Assembly: GCA_049323635.1 (NCBI GenBank)
Contig: JBMONS010000035.1
Coordinates: forward strand, 2,744 to 66,743
Direction of reading: 5' to 3'
Length of the DNA stretch: 64,000 nucleotides
From: Thermodesulfobacteriota bacterium
Lineage (GTDB): Bacteria > Desulfobacterota > Desulfobulbia > Desulfobulbales > Desulfurivibrionaceae
Below the pieces are notes generated by a model, which saw only the letters and a program-made list of their open reading frames with translations, was not told the DNA's origin and did no database searches. The translations under genes and the position numbers were made by a program. Shown piece after piece: positions 6,480 through 53,776 of this stretch; within the stretch, counting starts at the first letter, position 1; the number at the start of each line of letters is the position of its first letter.

Positions 6480-6495
6480 AATATAGGCTTTTTTG

Positions 6496-8642
<2,147 letters not shown>

Positions 8643-8646
<4 letters not shown>

Positions 8647-9170
8647 ACCTGCTACTGATCGGCGATTCGCTGGTGGAGTACAACGACTGGAGCCGCGGCC
8701 TGCCGGAACACCGGGTGGTCAACGCCGGGGTGGCCGGCGAATCGGTGGGCGGCCTGCTCGCCCGGCTGCCAAGGCTCCTGGCCATACGGCTCGCACCCGA
8801 GGCAATCGGGGTGATGATCGGGACCAACAACCTCCTGATGGAGGATTACGCCTTTTTCCAGGAGTACGAGGAGATCCTTGCCACCATCGCCGCCACGCTG
8901 CCGCGGGCAGGGCGCCTCGTCACCGGGCTGCCGCCCTTTGCTCTCCCCTGGCTGGCGGACTCAGCCATCCCCAGACTGAACACGGCGCTGACCGGGCTGG
9001 CCGCCCGCCACAAGGCCTTCTTCCTCGACCTGCACGCCGCCTTTACCGAAGCGGGAGGACCGGCCTCCTCCTGCTTCGAGCCCGACGGTGTCCACTTCAG
9101 CGCCCATGGCTACGCGCGGTGGGAACGGTCCCTCAAGAAGGCGCTCGCCACCATGGCGGCCCACGGTTGA
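8643..9170 (+). CDS. SGNH/GDSL-family hydrolase
   Basis: The GTG start overlaps the glgX stop (GTGA). Block I is LLIGDSL, there is a GxND-like IGTNN, and block V is DGVHFSAHGY. Confidence 0.75.
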
Positions 9171-9247
9171 GTCGCTTCGGATGGTTTTTGCCCACCTCCC
9201 TCCCATCATCGCTTGACGCTCTCCCCCTTTTCCTGCCAAGATAGGCC

Positions 9248-10153
9248 ATGCCCGCAAATATGGCGGCAAACGCCAACAGGATCGACACCATGGCAATCGA
9301 TACCACGACCACCCCGGCGGATTACCGCCACCCCATCCCCATAGCCGATGGCATCTACTGGGTGGGCTTTTACGACCAGCCCTCCGGCCTGCACTGCAAC
9401 CCTTACCTGATCGTAGATCATGGCGAGGCGGTGGTGATCGACGGCGGCAGCCGCCCTGATTTCCCGGTGGTGATGATGAAGATTCTCCGCGCCGGCATCG
9501 CCCCCGCCTCGATCAGCGCCCTCATTTACCAGCACTACGATCCTGATCTCTGCGGCAGCCTGGCCAACTTCGAGGAGATCATCGACAACCCCGAACTGCG
9601 GATCATCTCCGACAGGGAGAACAACATGTTCATCCGCCACTACTCGGTTTCATCGAAGCTGGTGGCGCTGGACAGCGTGGGACATCGTTTCCGCTTCCGC
9701 TCCGGCAGGGAGCTGCGCTTCATCAACACCCCCTACGCCCATTCCGCCGGCAGCTTCGTTACCCTCGATTCCCACTCCGGGGTGCTCTTTACCAGCGATC
9801 TCTTTGGCAGCTACGGCAGCGAGTGGGAACTCTTTCTGCGTCTTGAACCGCAATGCCGGCCATGCCTCACCTTTCCCCAGTGCCCCCACGGCAAAAGCTA
9901 CTGCCCGGTGGCGGACATCGCCCGCTTCCATCGCCGGATCATGCCGGCCACCGCCGCCCTCCGCCTTGCCATGGAACGGATTGCCGCCCTGCCCTATGCG
10001 ATCCTGGCGCCGCAGCACGGCAGCGTCATCCCGGAACGGACCGACGGCGAGGCCATGCTTTCGATGCTGTGTGGACTCGACGAGGTAGGGATCGACGGGG
10101 TGCTGACCCCATTGCGGGCCGGGCGCCCACCCCTTGGCGAGACGCCGCCATGA
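9248..10153 (+). CDS. flavodiiron-protein-like metallo-beta-lactamase-fold domain protein (ODP-type putative di-iron sensor), no flavodoxin domain
   Basis: Motifs are collinear with the FDP lactamase domain: VVIDGG, QHYDPDLCGSL (versus H-x-E-x-D-H), TPYAHSAGS, LFTSDLFGS, APQHGSV. The start is uncertain (9248, 9260 or 9290). Confidence 0.7.
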   Translation: MPANMAANANRIDTMAIDTTTTPADYRHPIPIADGIYWVGFYDQPSGLHCNPYLIVDHGEAVVIDGGSRPDFPVVMMKILRAGIAPASISALIYQHYDPDLCGSLANFEEIIDNPELRIISDRENNMFIRHYSVSSKLVALDSVGHRFRFRSGRELRFINTPYAHSAGSFVTLDSHSGVLFTSDLFGSYGSEWELFLRLEPQCRPCLTFPQCPHGKSYCPVADIARFHRRIMPATAALRLAMERIAALPYAILAPQHGSVIPERTDGEAMLSMLCGLDEVGIDGVLTPLRAGRPPLGETPP

Positions 10154-11061
10154 TCAAGACCCTGCCCCATCATGCCGACTTCGACGCCGAGGCCAACCGG
10201 CTCATCACCATGCTGGAGTACCAGGCCCGCCAGACCGACAGCGAGATCAACAAAAAGCTGCTCATGGAGCTGGTGCGCGGCTATGCCGAGGCGGAACGGG
10301 AGCTTGCGGAAAAACAGCGCCAGATCGAGGAGGATCTCCGCGCCGGGGCGATGATCCAGAAGACCATGCTGCCCCAGGCGCTGCCGGTCACCGACAACTT
10401 CCGCTTCGCCTCCCGCTTCATCCCCTGCAACTTCCTGGGCGGCGACATGTTCACCATCTTCCCGGTCACCGAGGAGATTGTCGGCATCGCCATCCTCGAC
10501 GTCAGCGGCCACGGGGTGCCCGCCGCCCTAGTCACCGTGTCGGTGGCCCAGACCCTGCAGGAAACCTGGAGCAACTCCATGCCCCACTCGCCCAAGGAGG
10601 TGGTGGAGAGCCTGGAAAAGGACTATCCCTTCGAGCGGTTCGAAAAATTCTTCACCATGGTCTATCTGCTGCTCGACACCAGCTCCGGCCAGCTCCATTA
10701 CTGCAACGCCGGCCACCCGCCGCCGCTGCTGCTCCGGCAAAACGGCTCGGTGGAACCGCTGGAAATGGGCGGCGGCATCGTGGGGCTTTCCGGGATGCTG
10801 GACTTCGAGGAAGGGGAAAAACAGCTGCGGCCGGGCGACACCCTGCTGCTTCATACGGACGGCCTGATCGAACACCAGAACCTGCGGGAGGAGTTCTTTG
10901 GCCTGGATCGCCTGACCGCCCTGCTCCCCTCCCTGCGCCTTCTGGAACCGGAGCCCATGCTCGACCAGATCCTGGCCTCGGCCATGGCGTTTGGCAAGGG
11001 TTGCCCGGTGCGCGACGACATCGCCCTGCTCGCCATCCGCTCTCAGGAGGAAAAGCCATGA
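10150..11061 (+). CDS. PP2C-family (SpoIIE/RsbU-type) serine phosphatase
   Basis: ATGA overlap with the upstream stop. SpoIIE-domain motifs: GGDMFTIF, AILDVSGHGVPAAL, YCNAGHPPPLL, LLLHTDGLIE, DDIALLAI. The N-terminal 70 aa is a coiled-coil-like linker. Confidence 0.85.
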   Translation: MIKTLPHHADFDAEANRLITMLEYQARQTDSEINKKLLMELVRGYAEAERELAEKQRQIEEDLRAGAMIQKTMLPQALPVTDNFRFASRFIPCNFLGGDMFTIFPVTEEIVGIAILDVSGHGVPAALVTVSVAQTLQETWSNSMPHSPKEVVESLEKDYPFERFEKFFTMVYLLLDTSSGQLHYCNAGHPPPLLLRQNGSVEPLEMGGGIVGLSGMLDFEEGEKQLRPGDTLLLHTDGLIEHQNLREEFFGLDRLTALLPSLRLLEPEPMLDQILASAMAFGKGCPVRDDIALLAIRSQEEKP

Positions 11062-11867
11062 CCACCCAGGAGTTGCGCCGGGAGGAACGGCTGACCATCG
11101 CCTCGATCATCTTCCCCTTCCTGGGGTCGCGGAACCGCGATTTCGCCTGTTTCCAGTACCTGCCCCTGGACTTCAGCGCCCATGGGCTCCAGATCGTCAT
11201 CCCCAGATGGGTGGTGAACCGGGAGCGGTTGCTGGCCGGGGAACGGATCAACCTGCACGTGCCGTTCAAGCTCAAGGGCGACACCTACAGTCAGGGGGAG
11301 ATCGCCTGGGCACGGGAAGACGCCAGCGTGGACGGCTTCCGCTACGGCGTCCAGCTGACCAGAAAACACCTGCCCAGCTACCCGCTCTACATCTCGCTGG
11401 GACTGGACAAGGGGGTGGGGGTCGATCTGAGCGACTTCGAGACCCCGGAGCTGATGCTGGTGCAGCTGATCAAGGACGCGGCGCTCCTCAAAAAAGGGAT
11501 CCAGATCTATTTCGACCATCTGATCCCCTACTTCTCCCGGATCGCCGATTACCCGGCCGAACTCTATCCAGAACTCAAGAAGCTGCTCTTCCACGACATC
11601 GGCGAGAAGATCCGGGAAAACCACCGCCGGCTGGAGGCGCTGCACGCCCGCCTTCTCGCCGATGCCTGGAGCCACCCCGGCATCCCCAAGGACTTCGATC
11701 TGGAGGAGCTGCGCGGCTTCATGGAGTCGGAGCTTTCCACCGATCTCCTGCAGCTCGCGCTGGGATCCAGCGCCATCACCCCCTATCTCAGCGCCATCAA
11801 GGAACTGGAGAAGAAGCAGTACACCACTTACAACGCTATCGTGCTGCTCTTTGTCCGCTCACTGTGA
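11058..11867 (+). CDS. PilZ domain protein with a C-terminal helical domain of unknown function
   Basis: ATGA overlap with the phosphatase stop. RxxxR (R7-REE-R11), and DxSxxG (DFSAHG) 27 aa later, match the c-di-GMP-binding PilZ signature. The remaining ~170 aa are unassigned. Confidence 0.7.
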   Translation: MTTQELRREERLTIASIIFPFLGSRNRDFACFQYLPLDFSAHGLQIVIPRWVVNRERLLAGERINLHVPFKLKGDTYSQGEIAWAREDASVDGFRYGVQLTRKHLPSYPLYISLGLDKGVGVDLSDFETPELMLVQLIKDAALLKKGIQIYFDHLIPYFSRIADYPAELYPELKKLLFHDIGEKIRENHRRLEALHARLLADAWSHPGIPKDFDLEELRGFMESELSTDLLQLALGSSAITPYLSAIKELEKKQYTTYNAIVLLFVRSL

Positions 11868-12899
11868 GCCGCGGCCCGGAAGCCCGCCGGCCAGCCACTG
11901 GGCGGCGCTCACCCCGTCCCGCCCCAAGAGTGGGACCACCTCCTTTCCCACTCCCTGCTGCAGCCGCCAGTCGTTTTCCTTGTTGACCTGAAACCAGCTT
12001 ATGCCGGCAAGGCCCCAAAGTTGCGCCTGCTGCCGTGCCTGGGCCAGCCAGGCGGCCTTGTCGCCGCCCTCGGTGGCCGAGGCGGTTTCAAAGACCACGA
12101 TGGGGAGATCCGGGGCGAGGGCGGTCAATTCGTCCCGCAGGGGAGAGAAGATCTCCGCAAAACTCTGCCAGCGGCTCTTCCAGCCATGGGTGGCCTGGCA
12201 ACGGGTGGTTCCCCAGTTGTAGCCGTCCATGCCCAGGACATCCACGTAGCCCCGTCCGGGGAAATAGGCGGCGGCGCGGTTCCAGCCGGCACCCTTGTCG
12301 TAAAGGGGGTGGGGGATCGACTCGGCGTTGGGGCAGAAGGCCCACAGCACGTTATGGGCCCCTTCCCGACGGAAGACCCGCACCACATGCCGGAACATGG
12401 CCACATAGGCCGCCGGGCTCGCCGGGCCATACTCCTGCCGGGAGGTGCCCCAGTGGTAGCGGGCGGTATTCATCTCATGGGCAAAGCGTATGATCACCGG
12501 CCTGCCCCACTCCCTGGCCTGGCGGGCAAAAGCGGCCAGGTAGCGGTCGTAGTCGCCGCCCACGATTTGCTGGGCCGGGATCATGGTCTCCTGGCCGCCC
12601 TGGTAGTGCATCGGCTCCCAGGTGATGCAGGGCAGGGCCTGCTGCCGGGCGATGGCGTCGAGGCTGGCCACCGGGAAGTTGTCCGCGCCAGGGTCGGCGG
12701 GCCATTGCAGGAAGAAGACCACCAGACCGGGCCGGACCCCGGTTTCCTCCGCCGCCTGGTTCAGCTGGGCATCGCTGAGGGGATTGCCCTCCAGCCCCAC
12801 TCCCCACAGCATCCCCCGCGACCAGCGCGCCCCGAGCGACAGCCCGGCCAGGAGCAGCAACATCATGCCGATCCAGGGCCGGCGCGCCGACATGGCCAT
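11859..12899 (-). CDS. secreted glycoside hydrolase family 26 protein
   Basis: Signal peptide MAMSARRPWIGMMLLLLAGLSLGA. GH26 acid/base block RFAHEMNTARYHWG and nucleophile block IVVFETAS. The start at 12899 is 2 nt after the synthase stop. The 5' 231 codons of the 577-aa track ORF are an out-of-frame overlap with the GT2 gene. Confidence 0.8.
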   Translation of the reverse strand: MAMSARRPWIGMMLLLLAGLSLGARWSRGMLWGVGLEGNPLSDAQLNQAAEETGVRPGLVVFFLQWPADPGADNFPVASLDAIARQQALPCITWEPMHYQGGQETMIPAQQIVGGDYDRYLAAFARQAREWGRPVIIRFAHEMNTARYHWGTSRQEYGPASPAAYVAMFRHVVRVFRREGAHNVLWAFCPNAESIPHPLYDKGAGWNRAAAYFPGRGYVDVLGMDGYNWGTTRCQATHGWKSRWQSFAEIFSPLRDELTALAPDLPIVVFETASATEGGDKAAWLAQARQQAQLWGLAGISWFQVNKENDWRLQQGVGKEVVPLLGRDGVSAAQWLAGGLPGRGSQ

Positions 12900-12901
12900 C
12901 C

Positions 12902-14530
12902 CTACTCCTTCTCCAGCGGATGATTGAAGTAGAGCACCCAGGAGAGGATGGCGAAGTGGTAAAGGCACCACAGCGAATTGGCCAGGATGGCGAAAAGCGG
13001 CTGCCGCTCGTAGTAGAGGCGGTGCCCGCCCCACACCATGGCCGCGAAGGCGACCAGGGCCAGGAGCAACTGCGGCCAGAGGCGATACAGGGGCAGGGCG
13101 CGGCTCTGTCCCTTGGGAGTGATGCCGAAGCTGCCCCGCACCCCGAGAATCGCCAGGGCCGAGGCCTTCATGTAGACCGGAAAGCAGATGGCGTTCAGAA
13201 ACAGCCCCTGGAACATCTGCCAGGGCCGGTAGTGGCGCTGCTCCAGGGTGCCGAGAAAGACCGAGAGGGAAAGGACCAGATAGGGAGTAAAAACCAGCAG
13301 GTAGATCTCCGGATAGACAAAGAAGGAGGGAATGCCGGTAAAGAGGTAGAGGATCGGGCAGGCGGCCAGGATCAGGAAGACCCAGCCCACGAAGTAGTGG
13401 GTGCCGGAGAGGAAGTACTCCCACCATTTGGCAGCGGAGAGCCGGTGCGGATTCCGGCGCATCTCGGCAAGAATGGAACGGAAGAGCCCCACCGTGCCCA
13501 GGGCCCAGCGGAACTGCTGACGGAAGTAGCCGCCCAGGTCCTCCGGTCCCATGCCGAAGGCGCATACCTTGTTGAGATAGGCCGACTTCCATCCCTTGAT
13601 GTGGAAGCGGAGCGAGGTGGCGAAGTCCTCGGTCACCGAGCTCTCGTCGAAGCCGCCCACGTCCATGAGCGCCTCGCGCCGGAAGATGACGTTGGTGCCG
13701 CAGCAGAACATCGCCTCCTGCAGGCTCTTGCCCTCGCAGATGAACTCATAGAAGACCGCCTGCTGCAACCCCGAGGCCCTGGCCACCCGGTTGGTCTCGA
13801 AGTTGGAGTAGTACTGGGGAGTCTGCACGAAGGCCAGGCGGGGGTTCTTCTCCATCATCGCCACCAGCGGCTCGACAAAGTCCGGAAAGGGGTTCATGTC
13901 GGCGTCAAAGACGATGATGTACTTCTCCTTCTCGCTGGGCCGGGTGCCGAAATGGCCAAAGGAAAAACCCTCCACATGGCCGCCGTCGATGAAGCGCAGG
14001 AAATCGTTGATCATGCCGGCCTTGGCGCCGTGCCACCTGCGGCGGAAGAGGTTGATGCCGATGCGCTGGCACATGGCGTCGACGCTCTCCCGGTAGGCCC
14101 GCATCCGCTCCGGCGTGTCCCAGTCCAGGTCGTAGCGGGTGTCGTCCAGGAAGTAGAGGCTCTTGTTGGGGTAGGTGAGGTTGTAGAAGCAGGTGAGGGT
14201 GTTCTCCACCACCTCGATGGGCTCCTTGTAGGAGGAGACGATGATGGCCACCGGCGGGTAGTCGTCCAGCTCGGTTTCCGTGGCCAGGGGCGGCGGCGCC
14301 TGGGGCCGGTTGACCACGTGGTAGATGTTCAGGAAGTAGCCGAAACCGTGGATCAGGATGAAGAGCTCGCCAAACAGCAGCATGGAGGCCAGGATCCGCT
14401 CCTGCCACTGGAAGGGGGCGACGAAGAAGAGGGCGGTCCGCACGGAGAGATAGACGATGATCCCCAGCATGGCCAGCAGCACCAGGATGCCCAGCAATGC
14501 GGATCTGCTCCAGTTCCTTGGCTTGAACAT
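12902..14530 (-). CDS. cellulose-synthase-like family 2 glycosyltransferase (processive membrane synthase, no PilZ domain)
   Basis: 542 aa with N- and C-terminal TM helices. Motifs: VAIIVSSYKEP, DDT, HGAKAGMIN, VFDADM, FCCGTN, VTEDFATS (TED), QQFRWALG (QxxRW). Confidence 0.9.
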   Translation of the reverse strand: MFKPRNWSRSALLGILVLLAMLGIIVYLSVRTALFFVAPFQWQERILASMLLFGELFILIHGFGYFLNIYHVVNRPQAPPPLATETELDDYPPVAIIVSSYKEPIEVVENTLTCFYNLTYPNKSLYFLDDTRYDLDWDTPERMRAYRESVDAMCQRIGINLFRRRWHGAKAGMINDFLRFIDGGHVEGFSFGHFGTRPSEKEKYIIVFDADMNPFPDFVEPLVAMMEKNPRLAFVQTPQYYSNFETNRVARASGLQQAVFYEFICEGKSLQEAMFCCGTNVIFRREALMDVGGFDESSVTEDFATSLRFHIKGWKSAYLNKVCAFGMGPEDLGGYFRQQFRWALGTVGLFRSILAEMRRNPHRLSAAKWWEYFLSGTHYFVGWVFLILAACPILYLFTGIPSFFVYPEIYLLVFTPYLVLSLSVFLGTLEQRHYRPWQMFQGLFLNAICFPVYMKASALAILGVRGSFGITPKGQSRALPLYRLWPQLLLALVAFAAMVWGGHRLYYERQPLFAILANSLWCLYHFAILSWVLYFNHPLEKE

Positions 14531-14539
14531 GGCGCCTCC

Positions 14540-17401
14540 TCAAAAGCTATAGCGAAGCGTGGCCCAGAGGCCTGTGGCGTCCCACTCCTCGGAGCGGTGG
14601 ACGAGCCCCTTCAGCTCGGCCTGCCAGTGATCAGCGAACTCGTAATGCCAGCTGAGCTCGAGCCGGGCGGAGGGGTTCTCCTCGGAGTCGCTGCCCACCC
14701 CCAGGCGGAGATCGTAGTAATGCTGCTCGCCGCCGCAGAAGAACCGCCTGGCCAGATCGTGCCGCCAGTCCAGGGTGACCCCGTAGGACCAGTAATCCTC
14801 CGGAGTCCAGTAAGGGTGGAGGATGTCGCGGGTCTGCCCGGCCACGGTCCGGTAGATGTTCATCTCCTCGGTGTCGCGATGGCCGGCGTCGACGATCACC
14901 CGGAGTTGGCGCGGATGCTCGGTGAGCTGGTAGCCCAGGGCCAGGGTCTGCTGCTCGCCGCGATTGCCGTCGGTGTACTCGAGCTGCTCCGCCATGGCCT
15001 CCAGGCGCCAGCGGCGGCCGAGGTTGCCGTTGAGCCCCACCCACCGGTGATCGGCCTCCGTGCCCTGCCGCAAGGCATGGAGATTGGCGATCTCTTCAGT
15101 GCGCTTGACCCCGACTCCCACCTCCAGAAGGTCATCCAGGTTGTACCACAGCTCGGCATGACCCGCGGCAAGATCGTCCAGGCTCTCCCGCTCATACCGC
15201 TTGCCGCTTGCGCCCACCGAGCCGCGGAGCCATGGGGTGATGGGACCGGAAAGCTTGATGGCCAGCCGCTCGGAGCGGTAGGTTTCCGAAAGAGGGCCAG
15301 GCCGCTCCTCCTCCTGGCCCAGGCCGGCCTGGAGGCGAAAACGGCAGGCCAGGGGCAGCTCGGCCACCAGCTCCTCGCGGTGGCGGGAGAGGTCGGCCAG
15401 CTCGCCACGGCCCGTCTCCTTCCAGGCGCTGGCGGAAAGACCGATCGCGGGGTTACTGCGGGTCCGCTGGCGGGCAAGCCCGGAGGCCGCCATGTCGTGC
15501 AGGGGGGAGATGGCCAGCAGCCGCTGGTACTCCTCGCCCTCCTCGTCGCACAGCCCCAGGGAACAGGCAACCTGGGAGGCGTCGAAGCGGGCCTCCTGAT
15601 TGCCCGTCTGGAAGGCGAGCAGCTGGCCGTAGGTCTCCCGGGCCGCAAGCGGCCGCTGCCGCCAGACCAGCTCCTTGCCGCGGCTTTCCAGCAGGGCGCT
15701 CTTCTGGATGCGGTAACGGCCAAAAAGCCGCTCGCGCTGCAGGGCCATGTGGTGCCACTGTTCGGGCGGCAGGCTCTCCTTGCCCTGCTCCAGAGCCTGG
15801 CTGAATGCCTCGTACCGGCCAAAGATCTCCTGGCCGGCCTCCGGCGGCGCGGCAGCTGGCAGGAGGGGCATGGTCGCGCCACCCGCCAGTCCGGCCAATG
15901 CCGTGCGCAGCGCCTCGTCCACCGGCTGGCCCCACAGCTCGGCATACATCCCCTTGGCCTCCTCCAGCCGCCTGTCCCAGGCAGCCATCCGGGCCCGCTC
16001 GATCCGGGGCAGAGGGTTGCTCGGATCCAGGGACAGCAGACGCGCGTACACCACCTCGGCCTGCCCATACTCCTTGGCCCAGCTCAGGATGCGGGCGCGG
16101 GTAAGAAGCAGCTTGGGGGTGTCGGGGAAGCCTTTTTCCAGGATGTCCAGTTCGTTCAGGGCTTCGCCGTATAGGCCATCGCTGGCAAGCGCCTCGGCCA
16201 GACCCATCCGGGCCGGGAAACAGGCGGGATCCCGGGCAAGGGCCGCCCGCTGGCAGGCGATGGCGGCCTGGCGCTCGCCGTGCTCGGCATAGAGGTTGCC
16301 CCAGCGGACCAGCCGCATGGGCTGCGGGGCAAGCTCGGCCAGCAGGCGGGCCAGAAAGACCGGAGTGGTGCGTTCCTCCCAGCTGGCGTGGTAGCTGGCC
16401 TCGACACTGGCCGGTTCCATGGCCAGCGCGGTTGCCAGCGCCTCCCGCCCGGCGGCCCCTTGGCCGGCGGCCAGGCAGGCCCGTCCCAGCCCGAGAAAAA
16501 CCCGGGCCTCGTCGGGATACCTGGCCGCCACCCCCCGGAAATGGATCATCGCCGCCTCGGCCTCGCCCTGGCGCAACAGCACCTCGCCCAGCAGTAAAGC
16601 CGCCACCAGATGGCCTGGATCCTGGGCAAGCACCTTTTCCAACCAGGCACGCGCGCTCGGGTCATCGCCTTCGCCATGCTTGATCCGGGCCAGGAGCACA
16701 AGGGGATCCTGCCGCTGGGGCACCGTCAGGAGCAGCTCCCGGGCCACCCCTTCCGCCTCGGCGAATCGCTGGCTGTTGGCCAGCGCCTCGGCAAGCGCCA
16801 ATCCCGGCTCCACATTGGCCGGTTCCTTTTCCCTCCAGCCCCGGAAAAGCTTTGCGGCCGCCAGGAAGTCTCCCCACAGGTTCAGGCGATTGGCATACCG
16901 GCGCGCCAGTTCCTCCTGACCGCCGCCAACGCGCAACGCCTGCTGATAGAGGTCGCGGCATGCATCCAGATGCCCCACCTCCGCCTCCAGATCGGCAAGA
17001 TCGGCAAGCCCACCGGCCAGTTGCCCAGCGGTTTCGCCCTGGAACGAACCCGCCAGGAGCCGCCGTGCCTCGGCCATGTGCCGGCCTGCCTCCTCGGGAC
17101 GGTCCAGCCGCAGGAGCGTGCGGGCATAGGCAAGCCGGACGGCCCACACGCCGGGCCGCGCCATCACCAGCCGCTCATAGAGAGCCGCCGCCTGCCGCCG
17201 TCCCTGCGCGGTCTCGGCCAGAAGGCCGGCCAGGAGCAGCTCCGCGTCAAGATCCGAGATCCTTGCCTCGGCCGGCACAATGGTTTCCGACCTTGGCGGC
17301 ATGCCCCAGACCATGGCCCCGCCAGTCAGCAGGACAAGCGATCCCGCCGCAAGGCCAATGGAGAGACGATGTCTGGCGCAGCGCGATTGGGAGGCCATCA
17401 T
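14540..17401 (-). CDS. TPR-repeat protein fused to a C-terminal outer-membrane beta-barrel (BcsC/PgaA/PelB-like exopolysaccharide export scaffold/porin)
   Basis: 953 aa. The N-terminal ~600 aa are Ala/Leu-rich TPR-like repeats. The C-terminal ~330 aa have an alternating beta-strand pattern with aromatic girdles and end in ATLRYSF, a typical OM barrel terminus. Confidence 0.7.
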   Translation of the reverse strand: MMASQSRCARHRLSIGLAAGSLVLLTGGAMVWGMPPRSETIVPAEARISDLDAELLLAGLLAETAQGRRQAAALYERLVMARPGVWAVRLAYARTLLRLDRPEEAGRHMAEARRLLAGSFQGETAGQLAGGLADLADLEAEVGHLDACRDLYQQALRVGGGQEELARRYANRLNLWGDFLAAAKLFRGWREKEPANVEPGLALAEALANSQRFAEAEGVARELLLTVPQRQDPLVLLARIKHGEGDDPSARAWLEKVLAQDPGHLVAALLLGEVLLRQGEAEAAMIHFRGVAARYPDEARVFLGLGRACLAAGQGAAGREALATALAMEPASVEASYHASWEERTTPVFLARLLAELAPQPMRLVRWGNLYAEHGERQAAIACQRAALARDPACFPARMGLAEALASDGLYGEALNELDILEKGFPDTPKLLLTRARILSWAKEYGQAEVVYARLLSLDPSNPLPRIERARMAAWDRRLEEAKGMYAELWGQPVDEALRTALAGLAGGATMPLLPAAAPPEAGQEIFGRYEAFSQALEQGKESLPPEQWHHMALQRERLFGRYRIQKSALLESRGKELVWRQRPLAARETYGQLLAFQTGNQEARFDASQVACSLGLCDEEGEEYQRLLAISPLHDMAASGLARQRTRSNPAIGLSASAWKETGRGELADLSRHREELVAELPLACRFRLQAGLGQEEERPGPLSETYRSERLAIKLSGPITPWLRGSVGASGKRYERESLDDLAAGHAELWYNLDDLLEVGVGVKRTEEIANLHALRQGTEADHRWVGLNGNLGRRWRLEAMAEQLEYTDGNRGEQQTLALGYQLTEHPRQLRVIVDAGHRDTEEMNIYRTVAGQTRDILHPYWTPEDYWSYGVTLDWRHDLARRFFCGGEQHYYDLRLGVGSDSEENPSARLELSWHYEFADHWQAELKGLVHRSEEWDATGLWATLRYSF

Positions 17402-17404
17402 GGC

Positions 17405-18058
17405 TTACTTCCCCGGAGAACCCAGGCTGAGCTGGAGCTGACGGATAGCCTCCTCCCGCTGCCCGGCCCAAGCGAGGACCTGGGCGTACTTGCGCCGCAC
17501 CTGGACATCATCGGGCAACGCCTCCAGAATCCGCCGATATTCGCGGATGGCCGCCTCGTACTGCTTGAGCCAGCCCAGCAGCTCGGCCAGCTTGAGCCGA
17601 ACACCGTGGTCGCCCGGAACGCGGCCGAGATGGTCCAGGTAGATTGCCCTGGCCCGCTCATACTCCTTGAGACCGACCAGGATGTCCGCCATGGCGATCC
17701 TGTCCGCCTCGCCGAGCTGCTCCAGGGGGAGCTGCTCGAAAAGCCGCAAGGCCTGCTCGGATCTGCCGGCCCAGAAGAGCACCCGGGCCTTCTCCATGCG
17801 CAGGGCCGGCTCGCCGGGCCGCTCCTTGAGAAGCCGGTCATACTCGGCCAGCGCCTCGTCGTAACGCTTGGCAAAGCCGAGCAGCCTGGCCAGCTCCCAC
17901 CGGGCCTGCCAGGCCGAAATCTCGCCTCCCACGGCCACGGCGGCGGGAGGCTCCGTCGGGCCGGGCTGCGCGGCCGCTGTCCCCAACCCCATGAGTTGGC
18001 CGGCCATCAGCCCGCCAAGCACCCAGCCACGCCATCGCCACGCCATTGCCCTTGTCAT
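17405..18058 (-). CDS. periplasmic TPR repeat protein
   Basis: 217 aa. Signal-like N-terminus (GGLMAGQLMGLGTAAAQP) followed by TPR-like repeats (YDEALAEYDRLLKERPGEP...). There is an ATGA overlap with the upstream gene. Confidence 0.65.
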   Translation of the reverse strand: MTRAMAWRWRGWVLGGLMAGQLMGLGTAAAQPGPTEPPAAVAVGGEISAWQARWELARLLGFAKRYDEALAEYDRLLKERPGEPALRMEKARVLFWAGRSEQALRLFEQLPLEQLGEADRIAMADILVGLKEYERARAIYLDHLGRVPGDHGVRLKLAELLGWLKQYEAAIREYRRILEALPDDVQVRRKYAQVLAWAGQREEAIRQLQLSLGSPGK

Positions 18059-18762
18059 CGCTCATTCTCCAACAGCTTGCGATACTGCTCAATCGCCTCG
18101 TCCAGCCGGCCGGCCCACCCCAGCACCCTGGCCAGTCCGAGCCGGGCCGGCCGGTGGTCCGGCTGGCGGGCCAGCACCTGGGCAAAGAGCGCGACCGCCT
18201 CATCGTAACGCCGCTGCCACCCCAAAACCGTGGCCAGCTTGACCGACACCGACACCTCGCCGGGGGCGCTGGCCAGAGCGTTCCGGTAGCAGGTTGTTGC
18301 CTGCTCGAACCGCTGCCCGGCCACGGCCAGATCCCCCAGGCGTTGCCAAAAGGGGAAGCGGACCGCCGGATCCTCCGGCAACCGGCCGGCCAGGGCGATT
18401 CCCTTGTCCAGCTCTCCCGCCTGCGTATAGAGTCCGGCCAACTCGTCGATCAACTGGGTGTCGTGAGGATGATCGCCCAGGGCCAGTTCCAGCTCCCCCA
18501 TGGCCAAGGCCGTATTCCCCTGCCGCCGATAGGCCTCGGCCAGACGCCGCCGCGCCGTGGCGTCGATCAGGCCGGCCTCGATGGCCTGCCGGTAGAGCAG
18601 GATCGCTCCGGGAAGATCCCGATGGACGAAGGCAACCTCGGCACGGCGGAAGAGCACCATCTCCCGGTGCGCATGGTGATACCCGGCGCTGGCCGCCAGC
18701 CCCACGGCCAGCAGCAAGACGAGATACATCCCCCATTGGGCCTGCTTACCCTGCCAGTCCAT
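18055..18762 (-). CDS. membrane-anchored TPR repeat protein
   Basis: 235 aa with one N-terminal TM helix (MYLVLLLAVGLAASAGY) followed by TPR-like repeats. The start may be 18762 or 18729. With the 18762 start it overlaps the 3' end of the RsbW-like gene. Confidence 0.65.
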   Translation of the reverse strand: MDWQGKQAQWGMYLVLLLAVGLAASAGYHHAHREMVLFRRAEVAFVHRDLPGAILLYRQAIEAGLIDATARRRLAEAYRRQGNTALAMGELELALGDHPHDTQLIDELAGLYTQAGELDKGIALAGRLPEDPAVRFPFWQRLGDLAVAGQRFEQATTCYRNALASAPGEVSVSVKLATVLGWQRRYDEAVALFAQVLARQPDHRPARLGLARVLGWAGRLDEAIEQYRKLLENER

Positions 18763-19225
18763 CGCCCTGCCCGCTCTCGCCGCCCCCTCCGTGGGAAAAC
18801 CACTTCACCAGCCGTAAGACGTTCCGACCTTCCTCGCTGCTGTACTCCACGCTATCCATCACGGTATTGATGATGACCAGGCCAACCCCCCCTTCCGGCG
18901 CGGCATCCAAGCCGGCTGGCTCAACGGCCCGCCGAGGCGCATCCAAACAAAGCCCTGGCCGCCCGTGATCGGTGATCGTGATAACCAGCCGATCCGTCCC
19001 CACCGCCAGCGACACCGCCACCTCCTGTCCGGCCTGGCCCTGGTAGGCGTGCTTGACCACGTTGGTCACCGCCTCCACCACGCACAGCTCCAGCTGGAAG
19101 GCGGTCTTTTCGTCAAAGGGCAGCTGGGTGCAGATCCCCTTCACCGCCAGGCCAACCAGCGCGATATTGTGCAGGGCGCTGTCAATGGCGATGCTGGCCC
19201 TGCGCTCCGGATCCCCATGGCTCAT
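18746..19225 (-). CDS. RsbW/SpoIIAB-like anti-sigma-type serine kinase (HATPase_c_2)
   Basis: ELCVVEAVTNVVKHAY (N-box), ITDHGRP (G1), and GGVGLVIINTVMDSVEY (G2) motifs. The start at MSHGD (19225) is preceded by RBS GAGGAA, 10 nt after the STAS stop. Confidence 0.8.
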   Translation of the reverse strand: MSHGDPERRASIAIDSALHNIALVGLAVKGICTQLPFDEKTAFQLELCVVEAVTNVVKHAYQGQAGQEVAVSLAVGTDRLVITITDHGRPGLCLDAPRRAVEPAGLDAAPEGGVGLVIINTVMDSVEYSSEEGRNVLRLVKWFSHGGGGESGQGDGLAG

Positions 19226-19235
19226 CGGCGGTTCC

Positions 19236-19574
19236 TCACCCGGCAAATCCCCGCAGCGCCTCATCCAGGGAGGGAAAGATCCTGAAGATCCTGGTCATGC
19301 GGGTCAGTTCGAAAAGGCTCATCACCTTGGGCGGCACGTTGCACAGCACCAGCTCGCCATCGTTGCCCAGGGTCTTGAGCAGGGAGACCAGCACCCCCAG
19401 CCCGCTGCTGTCGATGAACTCCACGCGCTGAAAATCCAGGACGATCCTGCGGCTGCCGTTGTTGACGCAGTCCACCATGGTCCCCTTCACCAGGATGGCG
19501 TTGGAGGCGTCGATGCGCTTGCCCTGGGGAGTGGCCACCAGGATGTCCCCCTCGTTGCGGGTCGCTATGTCCAT
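19236..19574 (-). CDS. STAS-domain anti-sigma-factor antagonist-like protein
   Basis: 112 aa. RIVLDFQRVEFIDSSGLGVLVSL contains the conserved phosphorylatable Ser of the SpoIIAA/RsbV family. Confidence 0.85.
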   Translation of the reverse strand: MDIATRNEGDILVATPQGKRIDASNAILVKGTMVDCVNNGSRRIVLDFQRVEFIDSSGLGVLVSLLKTLGNDGELVLCNVPPKVMSLFELTRMTRIFRIFPSLDEALRGFAG

Positions 19575-23461: not shown

Positions 23462-23677
23462 GGATTGTCTTTGCACAGCCCTCCGCGACAAAATGCAAGC
23501 CCCAGCCCTGATGGCAGCCGGATCCATATCAAGAGTAGTTGCGAGGCAGGGGAAAAGACAAGAAAAAAGAGGAGAAGCAAACCGGCGGGAGATGATCAAT
23601 CACATCTCCCCCGGCTGTTTTTTTTGCGGATCCGGGCACCAGGGGCTCCGCCGCCGATGGTACCCGGATGGGATTGC

Positions 23678-53684: not shown

Positions 53685-53776
53685 GGAACTCCCCCTGTTT
53701 TGGTTCTGTTTCCCCTCGTCGATACCGCCCAACCGCGCCGTTGCGGCGCGTTCTCCTTTTGGCCGGCTCGACTCCA

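What the first reader, a model, noticed from the sequence alone, without database searches (positions are those of the whole stretch)
9248..11867. Translationally coupled flavodiiron-like sensor, SpoIIE phosphatase and PilZ operon
Three ORFs are joined by ATGA start/stop overlaps (10150-10153 and 11058-11061). ORF1 has the flavodiiron lactamase-fold motif series but no flavodoxin domain, the architecture reported for ODP-type O2/Fe(II) sensors. ORF2 is a SpoIIE/RsbU-type PP2C with only a coiled-coil N-terminus and no sensor domain of its own, so ORF1 is a plausible trans-acting sensor. ORF3 carries RxxxR (RREER) and DxSxxG (DFSAHG) PilZ motifs plus a ~170-aa unassigned helical domain. Coupling a di-iron gas-sensor fold to a partner-switching phosphatase and a c-di-GMP receptor in one operon is unusual.
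Basis: partly seen in the sequence, partly recalled or inferred. Interest (0 to 1): 0.75.

Follow-up and report, generated by a model that had tools for sequence, protein, structure and literature searches.

The report
Di-iron sensor driving a slime-synthesis switch
A small iron-containing protein of the kind known to sense oxygen for bacterial chemotaxis is here wired instead to a protein phosphatase, and together with a c-di-GMP-binding protein it most likely controls a neighbouring exopolysaccharide synthesis operon. The same sensor-phosphatase pair turns out to be widespread but unstudied in sulfate-reducing bacteria.

Summary
Three + strand genes are joined by ATGA overlaps.

- **ORF1 (9248-10153)** is an ODP-family oxygen-binding di-iron protein. 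It scores Pfam PF19583 E=8e-52, its best fold matches are T. maritima and T. denticola ODP, it keeps all seven candidate ligand positions, and it has no flavodoxin domain.
- **ORF2 (10150-11061)** is an intact SpoIIE/PP2C phosphatase with no sensor domain.
- **ORF3 (11058-11867)** is a canonical PilZ domain followed by a 145-aa helical bundle found in no other protein family.

New here: in 60 of 77 related species loci with room downstream, this ODP subclade is followed at once by such a phosphatase. In most of the rest it is followed by a sensor-less histidine kinase, and once by a PAS-GGDEF. All of these partners start with one shared ~50-aa helical module. That module occurs nowhere else in 1.29 Mb and is absent from the REC-SpoIIE phosphatases.

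ORF3's family always sits beside a GH26 / BcsA-like GT2 (no PilZ) / TPR-porin / STAS operon, which lies convergent here at 11859-19574. Relatives without ODP carry REC-SpoIIE in that position.

Best reading: ODP (O2/Fe(II)) controls the PP2C, which dephosphorylates STAS (opposed by an RsbW-like kinase) to regulate the polysaccharide synthase, with PilZ as a trans c-di-GMP receptor. This is a new variant of a known kind. The biochemistry is untested.

The parts
9248..10153 (+). ORF1: ODP-family oxygen-binding di-iron protein. It is a single metallo-beta-lactamase-fold domain with no flavodoxin domain. The likelier start is ATG 9290.
   Evidence: Pfam PF19583 8.3e-52. Closest solved sequences are TmODP 6qrq/6qwo (2.4e-18) and TdODP 6qnm/6r9n. 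AF2 pLDDT 86. Foldseek top hits are 6qwo, 6qrq and 6r9n, E 1e-16 to 1e-14, TM 0.79-0.82, ahead of flavodiiron cores and far ahead of hydrolytic MBLs. H96, D98, D100, H165, D184, H228 and H257 are shared with both crystallised ODPs and are at least 97% conserved in 120 homologs.
9854..9904 (+). Conserved four-cysteine insert C203-x2-C206-x5-C212-x6-C219 within ORF1. It is a putative extra metal or redox site.
   Evidence: At least 97% conserved in 120 homologs and invariant in alignment A1. Present in 78 of 83 ODP loci. No cysteines in the aligned stretch of Tm/Td ODP. Its function was not tested.
10150..11061 (+). ORF2: SpoIIE/RsbU-type PP2C serine phosphatase with no sensor domain of its own.
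   Evidence: PF07228 3.5e-47. Best solved relatives are P. aeruginosa RssB 3eq2, Rv1364c and SiaA 6k4e. Metal and catalytic residues D99, D117, G120-H121-G122, D237-G238 and D289-D290 are invariant in 52 ODP-linked phosphatases. It is the only SpoIIE gene in the window.
10192..10323 (+). N-terminal helical module of ORF2 (aa ~15-58, MLEYQARQTDSEINKKLLMELVRGYAEAERELAE). It is the proposed ODP-docking and transmitter element.
   Evidence: An HMM of SpoIIE N-termini hits the N-termini of 16 of 17 non-SpoIIE genes downstream of ODP, E 1e-8 to 1e-17. Alignment A3 shows the module running straight into either the kinase H-box or the PP2C linker. The module HMM gave 82 hits in 9,028 ORFs (1.29 Mb), all just downstream of ODP. 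It does not match REC-SpoIIE proteins.
11058..11867 (+). ORF3: soluble PilZ domain (aa ~6-122) plus a family-specific five-helix C-terminal domain (aa 125-269). It is the proposed trans c-di-GMP receptor of the neighbouring synthase.
   Evidence: PF07238 1.3e-6. AF2 pLDDT 87.5. Foldseek top hits are c-di-GMP-bound PilZ domains (VCA0042 2rde, BcsA 9fnn/4p00, YcgR), probability 1.0, and nothing matches the helical part. Both binding motifs are intact here and in 50 of 68 family members. The C-terminal domain is found in only 155 clusters among 1.84e9 representatives, almost all with the same architecture. The gene is always next to GH26-GT2-TPR.
11859..12901 (-). Periplasmic GH26 glycoside hydrolase, last gene of the polysaccharide operon. 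Its stop overlaps the ORF3 stop.
   Evidence: PF02156 3.8e-10. Start ATG 12899 has GGAG upstream and is followed by a signal-peptide-like N-terminus, 346 aa, matching the 343-354 aa of relatives.
12902..14530 (-). BcsA-like processive GT2 synthase that lacks the C-terminal PilZ domain.
   Evidence: Cellulose_synt and Glyco_trans_2_3 hits. BcsA 4hg6 E 4.9e-35, aligned to BcsA 98-512. E. coli BcsA aligned 218-684, which stops before its PilZ domain. TIGR03030 CelA 5e-66 over model positions 59-560 of 714, below the cut-off. About 7 TM-like segments.
14540..17401 (-). TPR plus a C-terminal PgaA/BcsC-like outer-membrane export protein.
   Evidence: Multiple TPR families. C-terminal aa 744-926 match the barrel region of the PgaA porin model TIGR03939, E 1.3e-9. 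No PDB sequence match for the C-terminal half.
17405..18762 (-). Two small TPR proteins (17405-18058 and 18055-18762) with hydrophobic N-termini. They are conserved members of the operon.
   Evidence: Counterparts of 213-238 aa occur in L001, L005, L007 and L008.
18746..19264 (-). RsbW/SpoIIAB-type serine kinase (HATPase_c_2), the proposed kinase of the STAS protein.
   Evidence: PF13581 3.7e-26. NCBIfam RsbW 2.7e-20, below the cut-off. N-box and G-box motifs are visible in the translation. No alternative sigma factor lies nearby.
19236..19574 (-). Single-domain STAS protein, first gene of the polysaccharide operon. It is the proposed substrate of ORF2.
   Evidence: PF01740 1.4e-20. TIGR00377 69.5 bits, above the 53.45 cut-off. 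It carries the phosphorylatable DSSG motif. STAS directly follows ODP-SpoIIE in L010 and L025.
19602..23599 (-). PAS hybrid histidine kinase (19602-21674) and sCache-HAMP histidine kinase (21671-23599) upstream of STAS. They are a possible second input whose target in this genome is unknown.
   Evidence: In relatives a PAS hybrid kinase, with Hpt in L003, accompanies REC-SpoIIE. The window has no REC-SpoIIE.

Best explanation
The three genes are the regulatory arm of a roughly 10-kb unit that controls synthesis of a secreted polysaccharide.

1. **Sensor.** ORF1 is an ODP, a soluble di-iron protein whose characterised relatives bind Fe(II) and then O2 as a stable peroxo species and pass that state on to a partner protein.
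2. **Transmission.** Here the partner is not a chemoreceptor. It is ORF2, a PP2C phosphatase whose only input element is a ~50-aa N-terminal helical module that runs directly into the linker helix of the phosphatase. I infer that ODP docks on this module and changes the packing or dimerisation of the linker. That would switch the phosphatase on or off, as RsbT does through the N-terminal domain and linker of RsbU.
3. **Switch.** ORF2 dephosphorylates the conserved serine (DSSG) of the STAS protein at 19236-19574. The RsbW-like kinase at 18746-19264 re-phosphorylates it.
4. **Output.** No alternative sigma factor is present, and the STAS gene heads the polysaccharide operon. So I infer that the unphosphorylated STAS protein acts post-translationally on the synthase machinery: a BcsA-like GT2, a TPR-porin and a GH26. 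The precedents are SypA in Vibrio fischeri and the STAS-glycosyltransferase All4160 in Anabaena.
5. **Second input.** ORF3 supplies in trans the PilZ domain that this BcsA-like synthase lacks, so polymerisation would also need c-di-GMP.

My guess at the sign, held with low confidence: in these anaerobes O2-bound ODP activates the phosphatase, and this promotes matrix production.

Shown here: domain identities, conserved catalytic, ligand and binding residues, gene linkage, and the shared module. Inferred: the physical ODP-module contact, the signal identity, STAS as substrate, the STAS target, the PilZ-synthase contact, and the sign of regulation.
For: **ODP identity.**

**Published role of ODP.** It acts as an auxiliary iron- and oxygen-binding subunit that interacts with sensor-less receptors according to its conformation (PMC6978683; PMC7319448; PMC7666581).

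**ODP-PP2C pairing.**
- 344 species genomes carry this subclade.
- Of the 80 best loci, 60 have a ~320-340-aa SpoIIE immediately downstream on the same strand, 3 have no room and 17 have another gene.
- Junctions are mostly -11 to +18 nt.

**Other partners.** They are also sensor-less output enzymes: HisKA-HATPase_c kinases (L032 and L088) and one PAS-GGDEF (L087).

**Shared N-terminal module.**
- E 1e-8 to 1e-17 against 16 of 17 non-SpoIIE partners.
- The alignment runs straight into the H-box or the PP2C linker.
- 82 hits in 9,028 ORFs (1.29 Mb), all just downstream of ODP, in 81 of 84 ODP-bearing sequences. Two of the three exceptions are contig ends.
- No match to REC-SpoIIE.

**Input swap on one phosphatase clade.** ORF2 is 42-47% identical to the REC-SpoIIE of ODP-less polysaccharide loci, about the same as to other ODP-linked phosphatases.

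**Link to STAS and the polysaccharide operon.** The same gene set occurs in three arrangements:
- convergent (window, L007);
- divergent (L008; L015, Desulfobacter curvatus DSM 3379);
- co-directional, ODP-SpoIIE-STAS-TPR...GT2-GH26 (L010, L025).

ODP-less relatives have REC-SpoIIE, STAS and sometimes HATPase_c_2 in the same operon context.

**Active sites.** PP2C, the DSSG of STAS, and the kinase boxes are all intact.

**Synthase.** The GT2 aligns to BcsA only up to the point where the BcsA PilZ domain begins.

**ORF3.** PilZ fold and motifs and strict synteny with the synthase.

**Mechanistic precedents.**
- Partner-induced coiled-coil linker control of PP2C, with the same input modules shared among PP2C, kinases and GGDEF (PMC12143880).
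- STAS phosphorylation acting directly on a polysaccharide enzyme (PMC13555669).
- SypA/SypE (PMC4517449).
Against: - No physical or biochemical data exist for any step.
- Most ODP-SpoIIE pairs (about 54 of 60) are not next to a polysaccharide locus or a recognisable STAS gene. The pair is therefore a general module, and its target here is inferred from position only.
- The STAS and kinase genes lie 7.4 kb away on the other strand.
- The module alignment includes sequences later scored by its HMM. Only about 57 of the 81 hits are independent of model building.
- This ODP subclade differs from the characterised ODPs: about 21-24% identity, a conserved 4-Cys insert and a C-terminal extension. 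The ligand could be something other than O2/Fe(II), such as NO, H2O2 or redox state.
- 18 of 68 ORF3-family members lack one or both c-di-GMP motifs. c-di-GMP binding is therefore not essential to the family's core role, which seems to reside in the C-terminal domain.
- No diguanylate cyclase lies near the locus.
- Two histidine kinases still sit upstream of STAS with no evident receiver partner, so the input logic is incomplete.
- The RsbW-like protein could still bind a sigma factor encoded elsewhere.
Confidence: 0.62

Rival explanations
1. The ODP-PP2C pair is a general O2/iron-responsive partner-switching input whose real substrate is a STAS or anti-sigma system encoded elsewhere. Its position next to the polysaccharide operon is incidental, or serves only co-regulation. 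In that case PilZ and the polysaccharide genes form a separate functional unit.
For: Most ODP-SpoIIE pairs are stand-alone bicistrons in unrelated contexts. The PilZ family associates with the polysaccharide operon whether or not ODP is present.
Against: Seven independent loci, including the window, keep ODP-SpoIIE beside the same operon in three different arrangements. In two of them STAS follows SpoIIE directly. ODP-less versions of the operon always carry a REC-SpoIIE in its place. The window has no other SpoIIE to serve the local STAS and kinase pair.
Confidence: 0.2
2. ORF1 is not a sensor but an enzyme. It could be an O2/NO/H2O2-detoxifying di-iron protein or a hydrolytic metallo-beta-lactamase-fold enzyme that is merely co-expressed with the signalling genes.
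For: The fold and ligands are shared with flavodiiron O2/NO reductases. NCBI names it only 'MBL fold metallo-hydrolase', and JGI names relatives 'flavorubredoxin'. One ODP without a signalling partner (L028) sits among a cation-efflux gene, a NifU-like gene and a GGGtGRT gene.
Against: It has no flavodoxin or rubredoxin domain to deliver electrons. It carries the ODP-type H-x-D-x-D-L motif rather than H-x-E-x-D-H. ODP structures outrank flavodiiron cores, and hydrolytic MBLs appear only below rank 40. The gene is tightly coupled, essentially without exception, to sensor-less output enzymes that share a dedicated N-terminal module. That pattern is hard to explain for a detoxifying enzyme.
Confidence: 0.08
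3. The conserved four-cysteine insert, not the di-iron site, is the sensing element. It would be a redox-sensitive Zn or Fe-S site, so the subclade would report thiol or redox or NO stress rather than O2/Fe(II) binding at the di-iron centre.
For: C-x2-C-x5-C-x6-C is nearly invariant in this subclade and absent from the characterised ODPs. From my own knowledge, the C-x2-C-x5-C part resembles the spacing in WhiB-type Fe-S proteins. The one ODP without a signalling partner (L028) also lacks the insert.
Against: All seven di-iron-site positions are conserved just as strictly. Four other ODPs that have signalling partners also lack the motif (L058, L061, L070, L086). The insert could simply be a structural Zn site. 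The tools return no model coordinates, so its geometry could not be checked.
Confidence: 0.1

Closest known systems
ODP (oxygen-binding di-iron protein) of Treponema denticola (TDE2498) and Thermotoga maritima, with their cytoplasmic chemoreceptors (Muok et al. 2019, PNAS 116:14955; PDB 6qnm, 6r9n, 6qrq, 6qwo)
   Same: Same Pfam family and same fold, with no flavodoxin domain. Same H-x-D-x-D...H...D...H...H positions. Both are stand-alone auxiliary sensors encoded next to a signalling protein that has no sensor domain of its own.
   Different: The output is a PP2C phosphatase, or a histidine kinase or GGDEF in sister loci, instead of a methyl-accepting chemoreceptor. Sequence identity is only about 21-24%. 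There is an extra conserved 4-Cys insert and a C-terminal extension. The partner carries a dedicated ~50-aa N-terminal module. The published list of ODP neighbourhood classes that I could read names Pkinase, MCP, GGDEF/EAL, START and HD, but not SpoIIE or HisKA. The Muok paper itself was not available.
RsbT-RsbU activation in the Bacillus subtilis general stress response (Baral et al. 2025, PMC12143880)
   Same: A separate partner protein controls a SpoIIE/RsbU-type PP2C through a small N-terminal helical domain and a linker that forms a coiled coil. The same input module is reused on histidine kinases and GGDEF cyclases. The phosphatase acts on a STAS protein that an RsbW-type kinase opposes.
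   Different: The partner here is a metal- and gas-binding ODP, not a kinase-fold protein released from a stressosome. The N-terminal module matches no Pfam family, so no RsbU_N hit was seen. No sigma factor lies in the locus. The contact and the mechanism are inferred, not shown.
SypA/SypE control of the Vibrio fischeri syp polysaccharide, and HenR/All4160 in Anabaena (PMC4517449; PMC13555669)
   Same: A STAS protein or domain is encoded with polysaccharide genes. Its phosphorylation state, set by an RsbW-like kinase and a SpoIIE-type phosphatase, controls polysaccharide production without an evident sigma factor.
   Different: Those phosphatases receive input through receiver (REC) domains, as in the ODP-less relatives found here. 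The polysaccharide machinery also differs: syp is an 18-gene locus and All4160 is a STAS-sugar-transferase fusion. Here it is a synthase-dependent BcsA-like GT2 with a TPR-porin and a GH26.
Bacterial cellulose synthase BcsA (GT2 plus C-terminal PilZ), and Alg8/Alg44 of alginate synthesis (PilZ on a separate subunit)
   Same: The catalytic and membrane core is BcsA-like. It has an outer-membrane TPR-porin and a periplasmic hydrolase, as in other synthase-dependent systems. A PilZ domain is genetically tied to the synthase. The BcsA PilZ domain is among the best structural matches of ORF3. From my own knowledge, Alg44 is the precedent for a PilZ domain supplied in trans.
   Different: No BcsB-like subunit was found. 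The hydrolase is GH26, not GH8. The PilZ protein is soluble, with a unique helical domain and no membrane or periplasmic part. The polymer is unknown. The GT2 scores far below the CelA cut-off (223 against 699 bits).

Membership tests
ODP (Pfam PF19583, oxygen-binding di-iron protein) | Matches the family profile above the curated threshold | tested here: met
   176.3 bits against a cut-off of 27.2, E 8.3e-52, full model length 1-194
ODP (Pfam PF19583, oxygen-binding di-iron protein) | Stand-alone metallo-beta-lactamase fold closest to solved ODPs, without the flavodoxin domain of flavodiiron proteins | tested here: met
   No second Pfam domain. Foldseek ranks 6qwo, 6qrq and 6r9n first (E 1e-16 to 1e-14, TM 0.79-0.82), ahead of flavodiiron cores.
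ODP (Pfam PF19583, oxygen-binding di-iron protein) | Conserved metal-site positions (H-x-D-x-D, H, D, H, H) shared with the crystallised ODPs | tested here: met
   H96, D98, D100, H165, D184, H228 and H257 align with identical residues in TmODP and TdODP and are at least 97% conserved in 120 homologs. Assigning each residue as an iron ligand rests on the flavodiiron analogy and my own knowledge, because the ODP paper was not readable.
ODP (Pfam PF19583, oxygen-binding di-iron protein) | Encoded with a signalling protein that lacks its own sensor domain | tested here: met
   SpoIIE, HisKA kinase or GGDEF lies directly downstream in essentially all loci with room.
ODP (Pfam PF19583, oxygen-binding di-iron protein) | Binds Fe(II) and forms a stable O2 adduct that changes partner activity | not testable with these tools
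   Needs metal analysis, UV-vis or resonance Raman spectroscopy, and activity assays.
SpoIIE/RsbU-type PP2C of a partner-switching system | SpoIIE profile match with intact metal-binding and catalytic aspartates | tested here: met
   PF07228 3.5e-47. D99, D117, GHG120-122, D237 and D289-D290 are invariant.
SpoIIE/RsbU-type PP2C of a partner-switching system | Cognate single-domain STAS protein with a phosphorylatable serine, plus an RsbW-type serine kinase | tested here: met
   STAS 19236-19574 carries DSSG. HATPase_c_2 kinase at 18746-19264. STAS is adjacent to ODP-SpoIIE in L010 and L025.
SpoIIE/RsbU-type PP2C of a partner-switching system | Output through release of an alternative sigma factor encoded with the module | tested here: not met
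   No sigma factor was found among the ORFs I scanned across the window except a housekeeping-type rpoD at 52059-53780 next to dnaG. None appears in the related loci shown. It should therefore be called partner-switching-like, with a non-sigma output.
SpoIIE/RsbU-type PP2C of a partner-switching system | Dephosphorylates the STAS phosphoserine | not testable with these tools
   Needs an in vitro phosphatase assay.
PilZ c-di-GMP receptor | PilZ profile match and beta-barrel fold | tested here: met
   29.1 bits against a cut-off of 22.5. AF2 predicts a barrel over aa ~20-122. Foldseek top hits are c-di-GMP-bound PilZ domains, probability 1.0, E about 2e-3.
PilZ c-di-GMP receptor | RxxxR and (D/N)xSxxG motifs with canonical spacing | tested here: met
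   R7-R8-E-E-R11 and D38-F-S40-A-H-G43, 26 residues apart. Both are kept in 50 of 68 family members.
PilZ c-di-GMP receptor | Binds c-di-GMP | not testable with these tools
   Needs DRaCALA, ITC or MST.
Bcs-type cellulose synthase system | BcsA with a fused C-terminal PilZ domain, a BcsB partner and a GH8 BcsZ | tested here: not met
   The GT2 aligns to BcsA only over the GT and TM core and ends where the PilZ domain would begin. It scores 223 bits against the 699 cut-off for CelA. No BcsB-like gene is present, and the hydrolase is GH26. It works like a synthase-dependent system but is not a Bcs member.

The most novel reading that the evidence does not exclude
This cysteine-bearing ODP subclade and the ~50-aa N-terminal helical module form a previously undescribed two-protein sensory cassette. 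It is analogous to RsbT with the N-terminal domain of RsbU, but gated by a di-iron and possibly Cys4 metal centre. The cassette plugs interchangeably into PP2C phosphatases, histidine kinases and diguanylate cyclases in several hundred species of anaerobes. In this genome it would make synthesis of an uncharacterised GH26-associated exopolysaccharide depend jointly on O2/Fe(II) status and on c-di-GMP.
Probability: 0.5. Interest if true: 0.72.

Novelty: new variant of a known kind. Interest (0 to 1): 0.62.

Why it matters
ODP is so far a single-system story: chemotaxis in a spirochaete and in Thermotoga.

If the pairing found here is functional, ODP would be a general, exchangeable O2/iron input for at least three major classes of bacterial output enzymes. 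There is a recognisable docking module that can be searched for and mutated. This gives a concrete test case for the proposed 'exchangeable toolkit' of linker-coupled inputs shared by PP2C phosphatases, histidine kinases and GGDEF cyclases.

It also offers a testable route by which strict anaerobes such as sulfate reducers and syntrophs could couple oxygen or ferrous-iron exposure to matrix production and aggregation.

Finally, it points to an uncharacterised synthase-dependent polysaccharide system whose c-di-GMP receptor is a separate soluble protein with a new helical domain.

Cultured carriers exist, so experiments are feasible. Desulfobacter curvatus DSM 3379 has the full set. Desulfoluna species and Desulfoferrobacter suflitae have the ODP-PP2C pair.

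Tried and rejected
- **Exact-sequence look-up of the 301-aa ORF1:** nothing found, because public gene calls start at M15. The identical 287-aa protein is in NCBI as 'MBL fold metallo-hydrolase' from a Thermodesulfobacteriota MAG.
- **Primary ODP paper (PMC6660769):** not held. Ligand roles and O2/Fe(II) chemistry therefore rest on secondary citations and my own knowledge.
- **Search of the 5.8-billion-protein collection with the 63-column module alignment:** no hit at E<=1e-3, since the query is too short for that database size.
- **Fusions of the ORF3 helical domain to a glycosyltransferase or another domain (Rosetta-stone evidence):** none. Nearly all of the 155 relatives have the same architecture. 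The three longer proteins tested have no Pfam domain.
- **PDB sequence search with the C-terminal half of the 953-aa TPR protein:** no match. Only an NCBIfam match to the PgaA barrel region supports a porin.
- **Promoter and terminator consensus scan of 8600-12400:** no sigma-70-like promoter, and terminator-like sites no more frequent than in shuffled sequence. It was uninformative.
- **A diguanylate cyclase or alternative sigma factor near the locus:** none among the ORFs I scanned across the window. Only an HD-GYP-like gene 49 kb away and housekeeping rpoD were found.
- **The idea that the module is just the generic PP2C linker:** rejected, because the module HMM does not match the REC-SpoIIE relatives.
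- **An ordinary hydrolytic MBL for ORF1:** rejected on the profile, fold and context evidence.

Full report
**1. The observation**

The + strand between 9248 and 11867 carries three ORFs. Their junctions are ATGA overlaps at 10150-10153 and 11058-11061, and they translate to 301, 303 and 269 residues.

- ORF3 has a strong AGGAGGA 8 nt before its ATG.
- ORF1 has a better ribosome-binding site (AGGA) before the in-frame ATG at 9290. This is the start used by NCBI for the identical protein, which is 287 aa and annotated 'MBL fold metallo-hydrolase' from a Thermodesulfobacteriota MAG on a 167-kb contig.
- ORF3 is also 100% identical to a protein of that MAG.
- The window has 64.6% G+C.

**2. What the three proteins are**

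*ORF1.*
- It matches Pfam ODP (PF19583) end to end, E 8.3e-52, and has no other domain.
- Its closest solved relatives by sequence are the Thermotoga maritima and Treponema denticola oxygen-binding di-iron proteins. Flavodiiron proteins follow, matching only over their lactamase-like core.
- An AlphaFold2 model built on 28 homologs (pLDDT 86) finds the same order by fold. TmODP (6qwo, 6qrq) and the peroxo form of TdODP (6r9n) come first, at E 1e-16 to 1e-14 and TM 0.79-0.82. Flavodiiron cores come next, and hydrolytic metallo-beta-lactamases appear only below rank 40.
- Seven residues (H96, D98, D100, H165, D184, H228, H257) are identical in both crystallised ODPs and at least 97% conserved in the 120 closest homologs.
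- The motif is H-x-D-x-D-L, the ODP form, not the flavodiiron H-x-E-x-D-H.

*ORF2.*
- It is a SpoIIE-type PP2C (E 3.5e-47, aa 111-297).
- All metal-binding and catalytic positions are intact.
- Its closest solved relatives are RssB, Rv1364c and SiaA.
- Nothing is assigned to its first ~100 residues.

*ORF3.*
- It passes the Pfam PilZ threshold.
- It carries R7xxxR11 and D38xS40xxG43 with canonical spacing.
- It models confidently (pLDDT 87.5) as a beta-barrel (aa ~20-122) followed by five helices (130-268).
- Foldseek matches the barrel to c-di-GMP-bound PilZ domains, including that of BcsA. It finds nothing meaningful for the helices.
- The protein has no membrane segment.

**3. Surroundings**

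An operon on the - strand converges on ORF3, and the two stop codons overlap at 11859-11867. Read in its own direction it encodes:

| Gene | Coordinates | Evidence |
|---|---|---|
| STAS protein with a DSSG phosphorylation motif | 19236-19574 | |
| RsbW/SpoIIAB-type serine kinase | 18746-19264 | |
| Two small TPR proteins | 17405-18762 | |
| 953-aa TPR protein whose C-terminus matches the barrel region of the PgaA porin model | 14540-17401 | |
| GT2 synthase | 12902-14530 | |
| GH26 hydrolase with a signal peptide | 11859-12901 | |

The GT2 aligns to BcsA over the catalytic and membrane core but ends where the BcsA PilZ domain begins.

This is the gene set of a synthase-dependent polysaccharide secretion system. 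It is not a Bcs system: there is no BcsB, the hydrolase is GH26 instead of GH8, and the CelA score is far below the cut-off.

Upstream of STAS lie a PAS hybrid histidine kinase and an sCache histidine kinase. The rest of the window is housekeeping (selA, htpG, an ABC transporter, Mrp/Nuo-like subunits, topA, dprA, rpoD-dnaG), plus one HD-GYP-like gene at 60761-62005.

Among the ORFs I scanned across the window there is no alternative sigma factor and no GGDEF protein. ORF2 is the only SpoIIE gene.

**4. Comparative evidence for the PilZ protein**

- ORF3 belongs to a small family. There are 68 clusters at 90% identity. The helical domain alone finds 155 clusters at 50% identity among 1.84 billion representatives, almost all 245-295 aa with the same layout.
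- Every member seen with enough flanking DNA lies beside GH26, a BcsA-like GT2, a large TPR protein, small proteins and STAS. This holds for L001, L002, L003, L005, L006, L007, L008, L010, L015 and L025.
- The C-terminal domain is the best-conserved part.
- Both c-di-GMP motifs are intact in 50 of 68 members, including the window's copy, but are lost in a minority.
- The synthase lacks its own PilZ. I therefore read ORF3 as the c-di-GMP receptor supplied in trans, as Alg44 does for Alg8 (my own knowledge). Its helical domain would be the likely contact to the machinery.

**5. Comparative evidence for ODP as the sensor of the phosphatase**

A scan of one genome per species found 344 genomes with this ODP subclade. 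The breakdown of the best 80 loci is:

| Gene immediately downstream of ODP | Loci |
|---|---|
| SpoIIE phosphatase of 320-340 aa, same strand | 60 |
| Contig ends, no room | 3 |
| Another gene | 17 |

Junctions are mostly -11 to +18 nt.

Of the 17 loci with another gene:
- Fourteen carry a ~290-aa-class gene in that position. The eight I scanned are all histidine kinases with no sensor domain (HisKA + HATPase_c). Two of them (L053, L054) are longer hybrid kinases that carry their own REC domains.
- In L036 and L074 the kinase is followed by a receiver protein and a PilB-like ATPase with an MshEN domain. Several sister loci show ORFs of matching sizes.
- One carries a PAS-GGDEF cyclase (L087).
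- One (L028) has no signalling partner.

A profile of the first 95 residues of the phosphatases hits the N-termini of 16 of these 17 non-phosphatase partners, at E 1e-8 to 1e-17. The alignment shows a shared module, consensus ..LLEYrA...DxEINNxLLKxLVxKYsxAERKLxELN. It continues directly into either the H-box helix of the kinases or the linker helix of the PP2C.

A 63-position profile of the module alone was searched against every stop-to-stop ORF of at least 60 aa in all 89 loci plus the window (9,028 ORFs, 1.29 Mb).
- It gave 82 hits.
- Every hit lies immediately downstream of an ODP gene on the same strand.
- 81 of 84 ODP-bearing sequences have one. Of the three exceptions, two are contig ends and the third is L028.
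- About 24 of the hits are training sequences. The remaining ~57 are independent.
- The profile does not match the REC-SpoIIE phosphatases.

So the module is specific to ODP partners and independent of output type. That is what one expects of a docking and transmitter element, and it is hard to reconcile with ODP being a co-expressed enzyme.

**6. Link between the ODP-phosphatase pair and the polysaccharide operon**

Polysaccharide loci of the same type without ODP carry a receiver-domain SpoIIE (REC-SpoIIE). Its PP2C part is 42-47% identical to ORF2, as close as the ODP-linked phosphatases are to each other. The input was therefore exchanged on one phosphatase clade.

Loci with ODP-SpoIIE keep the same gene set in three arrangements:
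- convergent (window, L007);
- divergent (L008; L015 from Desulfobacter curvatus DSM 3379);
- co-directional, with STAS immediately after SpoIIE (L010, L025).

Retention through rearrangement, and STAS directly following the phosphatase, argue that the local STAS protein is the substrate. The kinase gene is not always present (it is absent in L005 and L006). STAS and the phosphatase are present in every locus where the contig reaches that far, so STAS looks like the conserved output element.

**7. Mechanism proposed**

Published work describes ODP as an auxiliary subunit that binds iron and oxygen and interacts with its receptor in a conformation-dependent way.

Baral et al. showed that RsbT activates RsbU by ordering its N-terminal domain and linker into a coiled coil that dimerises the PP2C domains. 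They also showed that the same inputs are reused on histidine kinases and GGDEF cyclases. The distribution of the module found here follows exactly that pattern.

I therefore propose this chain:
1. ODP senses Fe(II)/O2 state.
2. ODP acts on the N-terminal module and linker of ORF2.
3. ORF2 dephosphorylates STAS, and the RsbW-like kinase opposes this.
4. STAS acts post-translationally on the synthase complex, with SypA and the STAS-glycosyltransferase All4160 as precedents.
5. c-di-GMP-loaded ORF3 provides a second, independent requirement for polymerisation.

The sign of each step is a guess.

**8. What remains open**

- Nothing is shown biochemically.
- This subclade has a nearly invariant C-x2-C-x5-C-x6-C insert (78 of 83 loci) that the studied ODPs lack. 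It may be structural, or it may be a second sensing site.
- Most ODP-SpoIIE pairs stand alone, and their substrates are unknown.
- The two histidine kinases upstream of STAS have no evident receiver partner in this genome.
- No diguanylate cyclase is nearby.
- The polymer is unknown.

**9. Novelty**

ODP as a recruited sensor for several signalling pathways is published. The neighbourhood classes listed in the one accessible re-analysis are Pkinase, MCP, GGDEF/EAL, START and HD. SpoIIE and HisKA are not among them.

Full-text searches found no paper that links ODP to PP2C phosphatases or partner switching. The primary ODP paper could not be read, so prior mention there cannot be excluded.

I rate this a new variant of a known kind: a known sensor type joined to new output classes through a previously unnoticed module, here governing an uncharacterised polysaccharide system.

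Noticed in passing
window 9854-9904 (ORF1 aa C203-C219): A four-cysteine insert, C-x2-C-x5-C-x6-C, is nearly invariant in this ODP subclade (78 of 83 loci) and absent from the crystallised T. maritima and T. denticola ODPs. It may be an extra Zn, Fe or Fe-S site, or a redox site.
   Followed up: partly
L036:10847-14031, L074:1290-4527 (also L012, L029, L075, L077, L080, L082): In sister loci the same ODP subclade is followed by a sensor-less HisKA-HATPase_c kinase that carries the same N-terminal module. In L036 and L074 this is followed by a single-domain receiver and a PilB-like T2SSE ATPase with an MshEN domain. Several of the other loci show ORFs of matching sizes. This suggests ODP control of type IV pilus or secretion ATPases.
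   Followed up: partly
L087:2017-3881 (Spirochaetales MAG): Here ODP is followed by a protein with the shared N-terminal module, then PAS and GGDEF. This is a third output class, a diguanylate cyclase, for the same cassette.
   Followed up: partly
L028:8565-12609: This is the one ODP of the subclade without a signalling partner. It also lacks the 4-Cys motif. It sits between a cation-efflux (CDF) transporter gene and NifU-like and GGGtGRT genes, yet still next to a STAS/TPR/GT2/GH26 operon.
   Followed up: partly
window 11859-11867: The ORF3 and GH26 genes converge and their stop codons overlap by 9 nt, leaving no room for terminators. Overlapping convergent ends recur in relatives (9 nt in L007, 28 nt in L005). 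Transcriptional interference or antisense effects are possible.
   Followed up: no
window 19602-23599 (- strand): A PAS hybrid histidine kinase and an sCache-HAMP histidine kinase lie directly upstream of STAS. In relatives such kinases, with an Hpt protein in L003, accompany a REC-SpoIIE. This genome has lost the REC-SpoIIE, so the kinases have no evident target in the window.
   Followed up: partly
window 11859-17401 (- strand): This is an uncharacterised synthase-dependent polysaccharide system: a BcsA-like GT2 without PilZ, a PgaA/BcsC-like TPR-porin and a periplasmic GH26 instead of GH8, with no BcsB. The polymer is unknown. GH26 hints at a beta-mannan or a mixed-linkage or beta-1,3-type glycan (my own knowledge of GH26 specificities).
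   Followed up: partly
window 60761-62005 (- strand): A DUF3391 + HD_5 protein, the usual architecture of HD-GYP c-di-GMP phosphodiesterases. It is the only c-di-GMP-turnover candidate found among the ORFs I scanned across the window.
   Followed up: no
window 23678-25777 (- strand): A TonB-dependent receptor gene (Plug + beta-barrel) lies immediately upstream of the two histidine kinases, on the same strand. A link to iron uptake, which could bear on an Fe(II)-responsive locus, was not examined.
   Followed up: no
window 6493-9170 and L007:7205-9858, L001:1-665, L009:2189-7450: Glycogen or starch-type enzymes lie just upstream of the ODP gene or the polysaccharide locus in several relatives: isoamylase/CBM48 and alpha-amylase, and GH57 in L009. 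A GDSL lipase gene does so in the window and in L007. This may be conserved synteny or a metabolic link to sugar supply.
   Followed up: no
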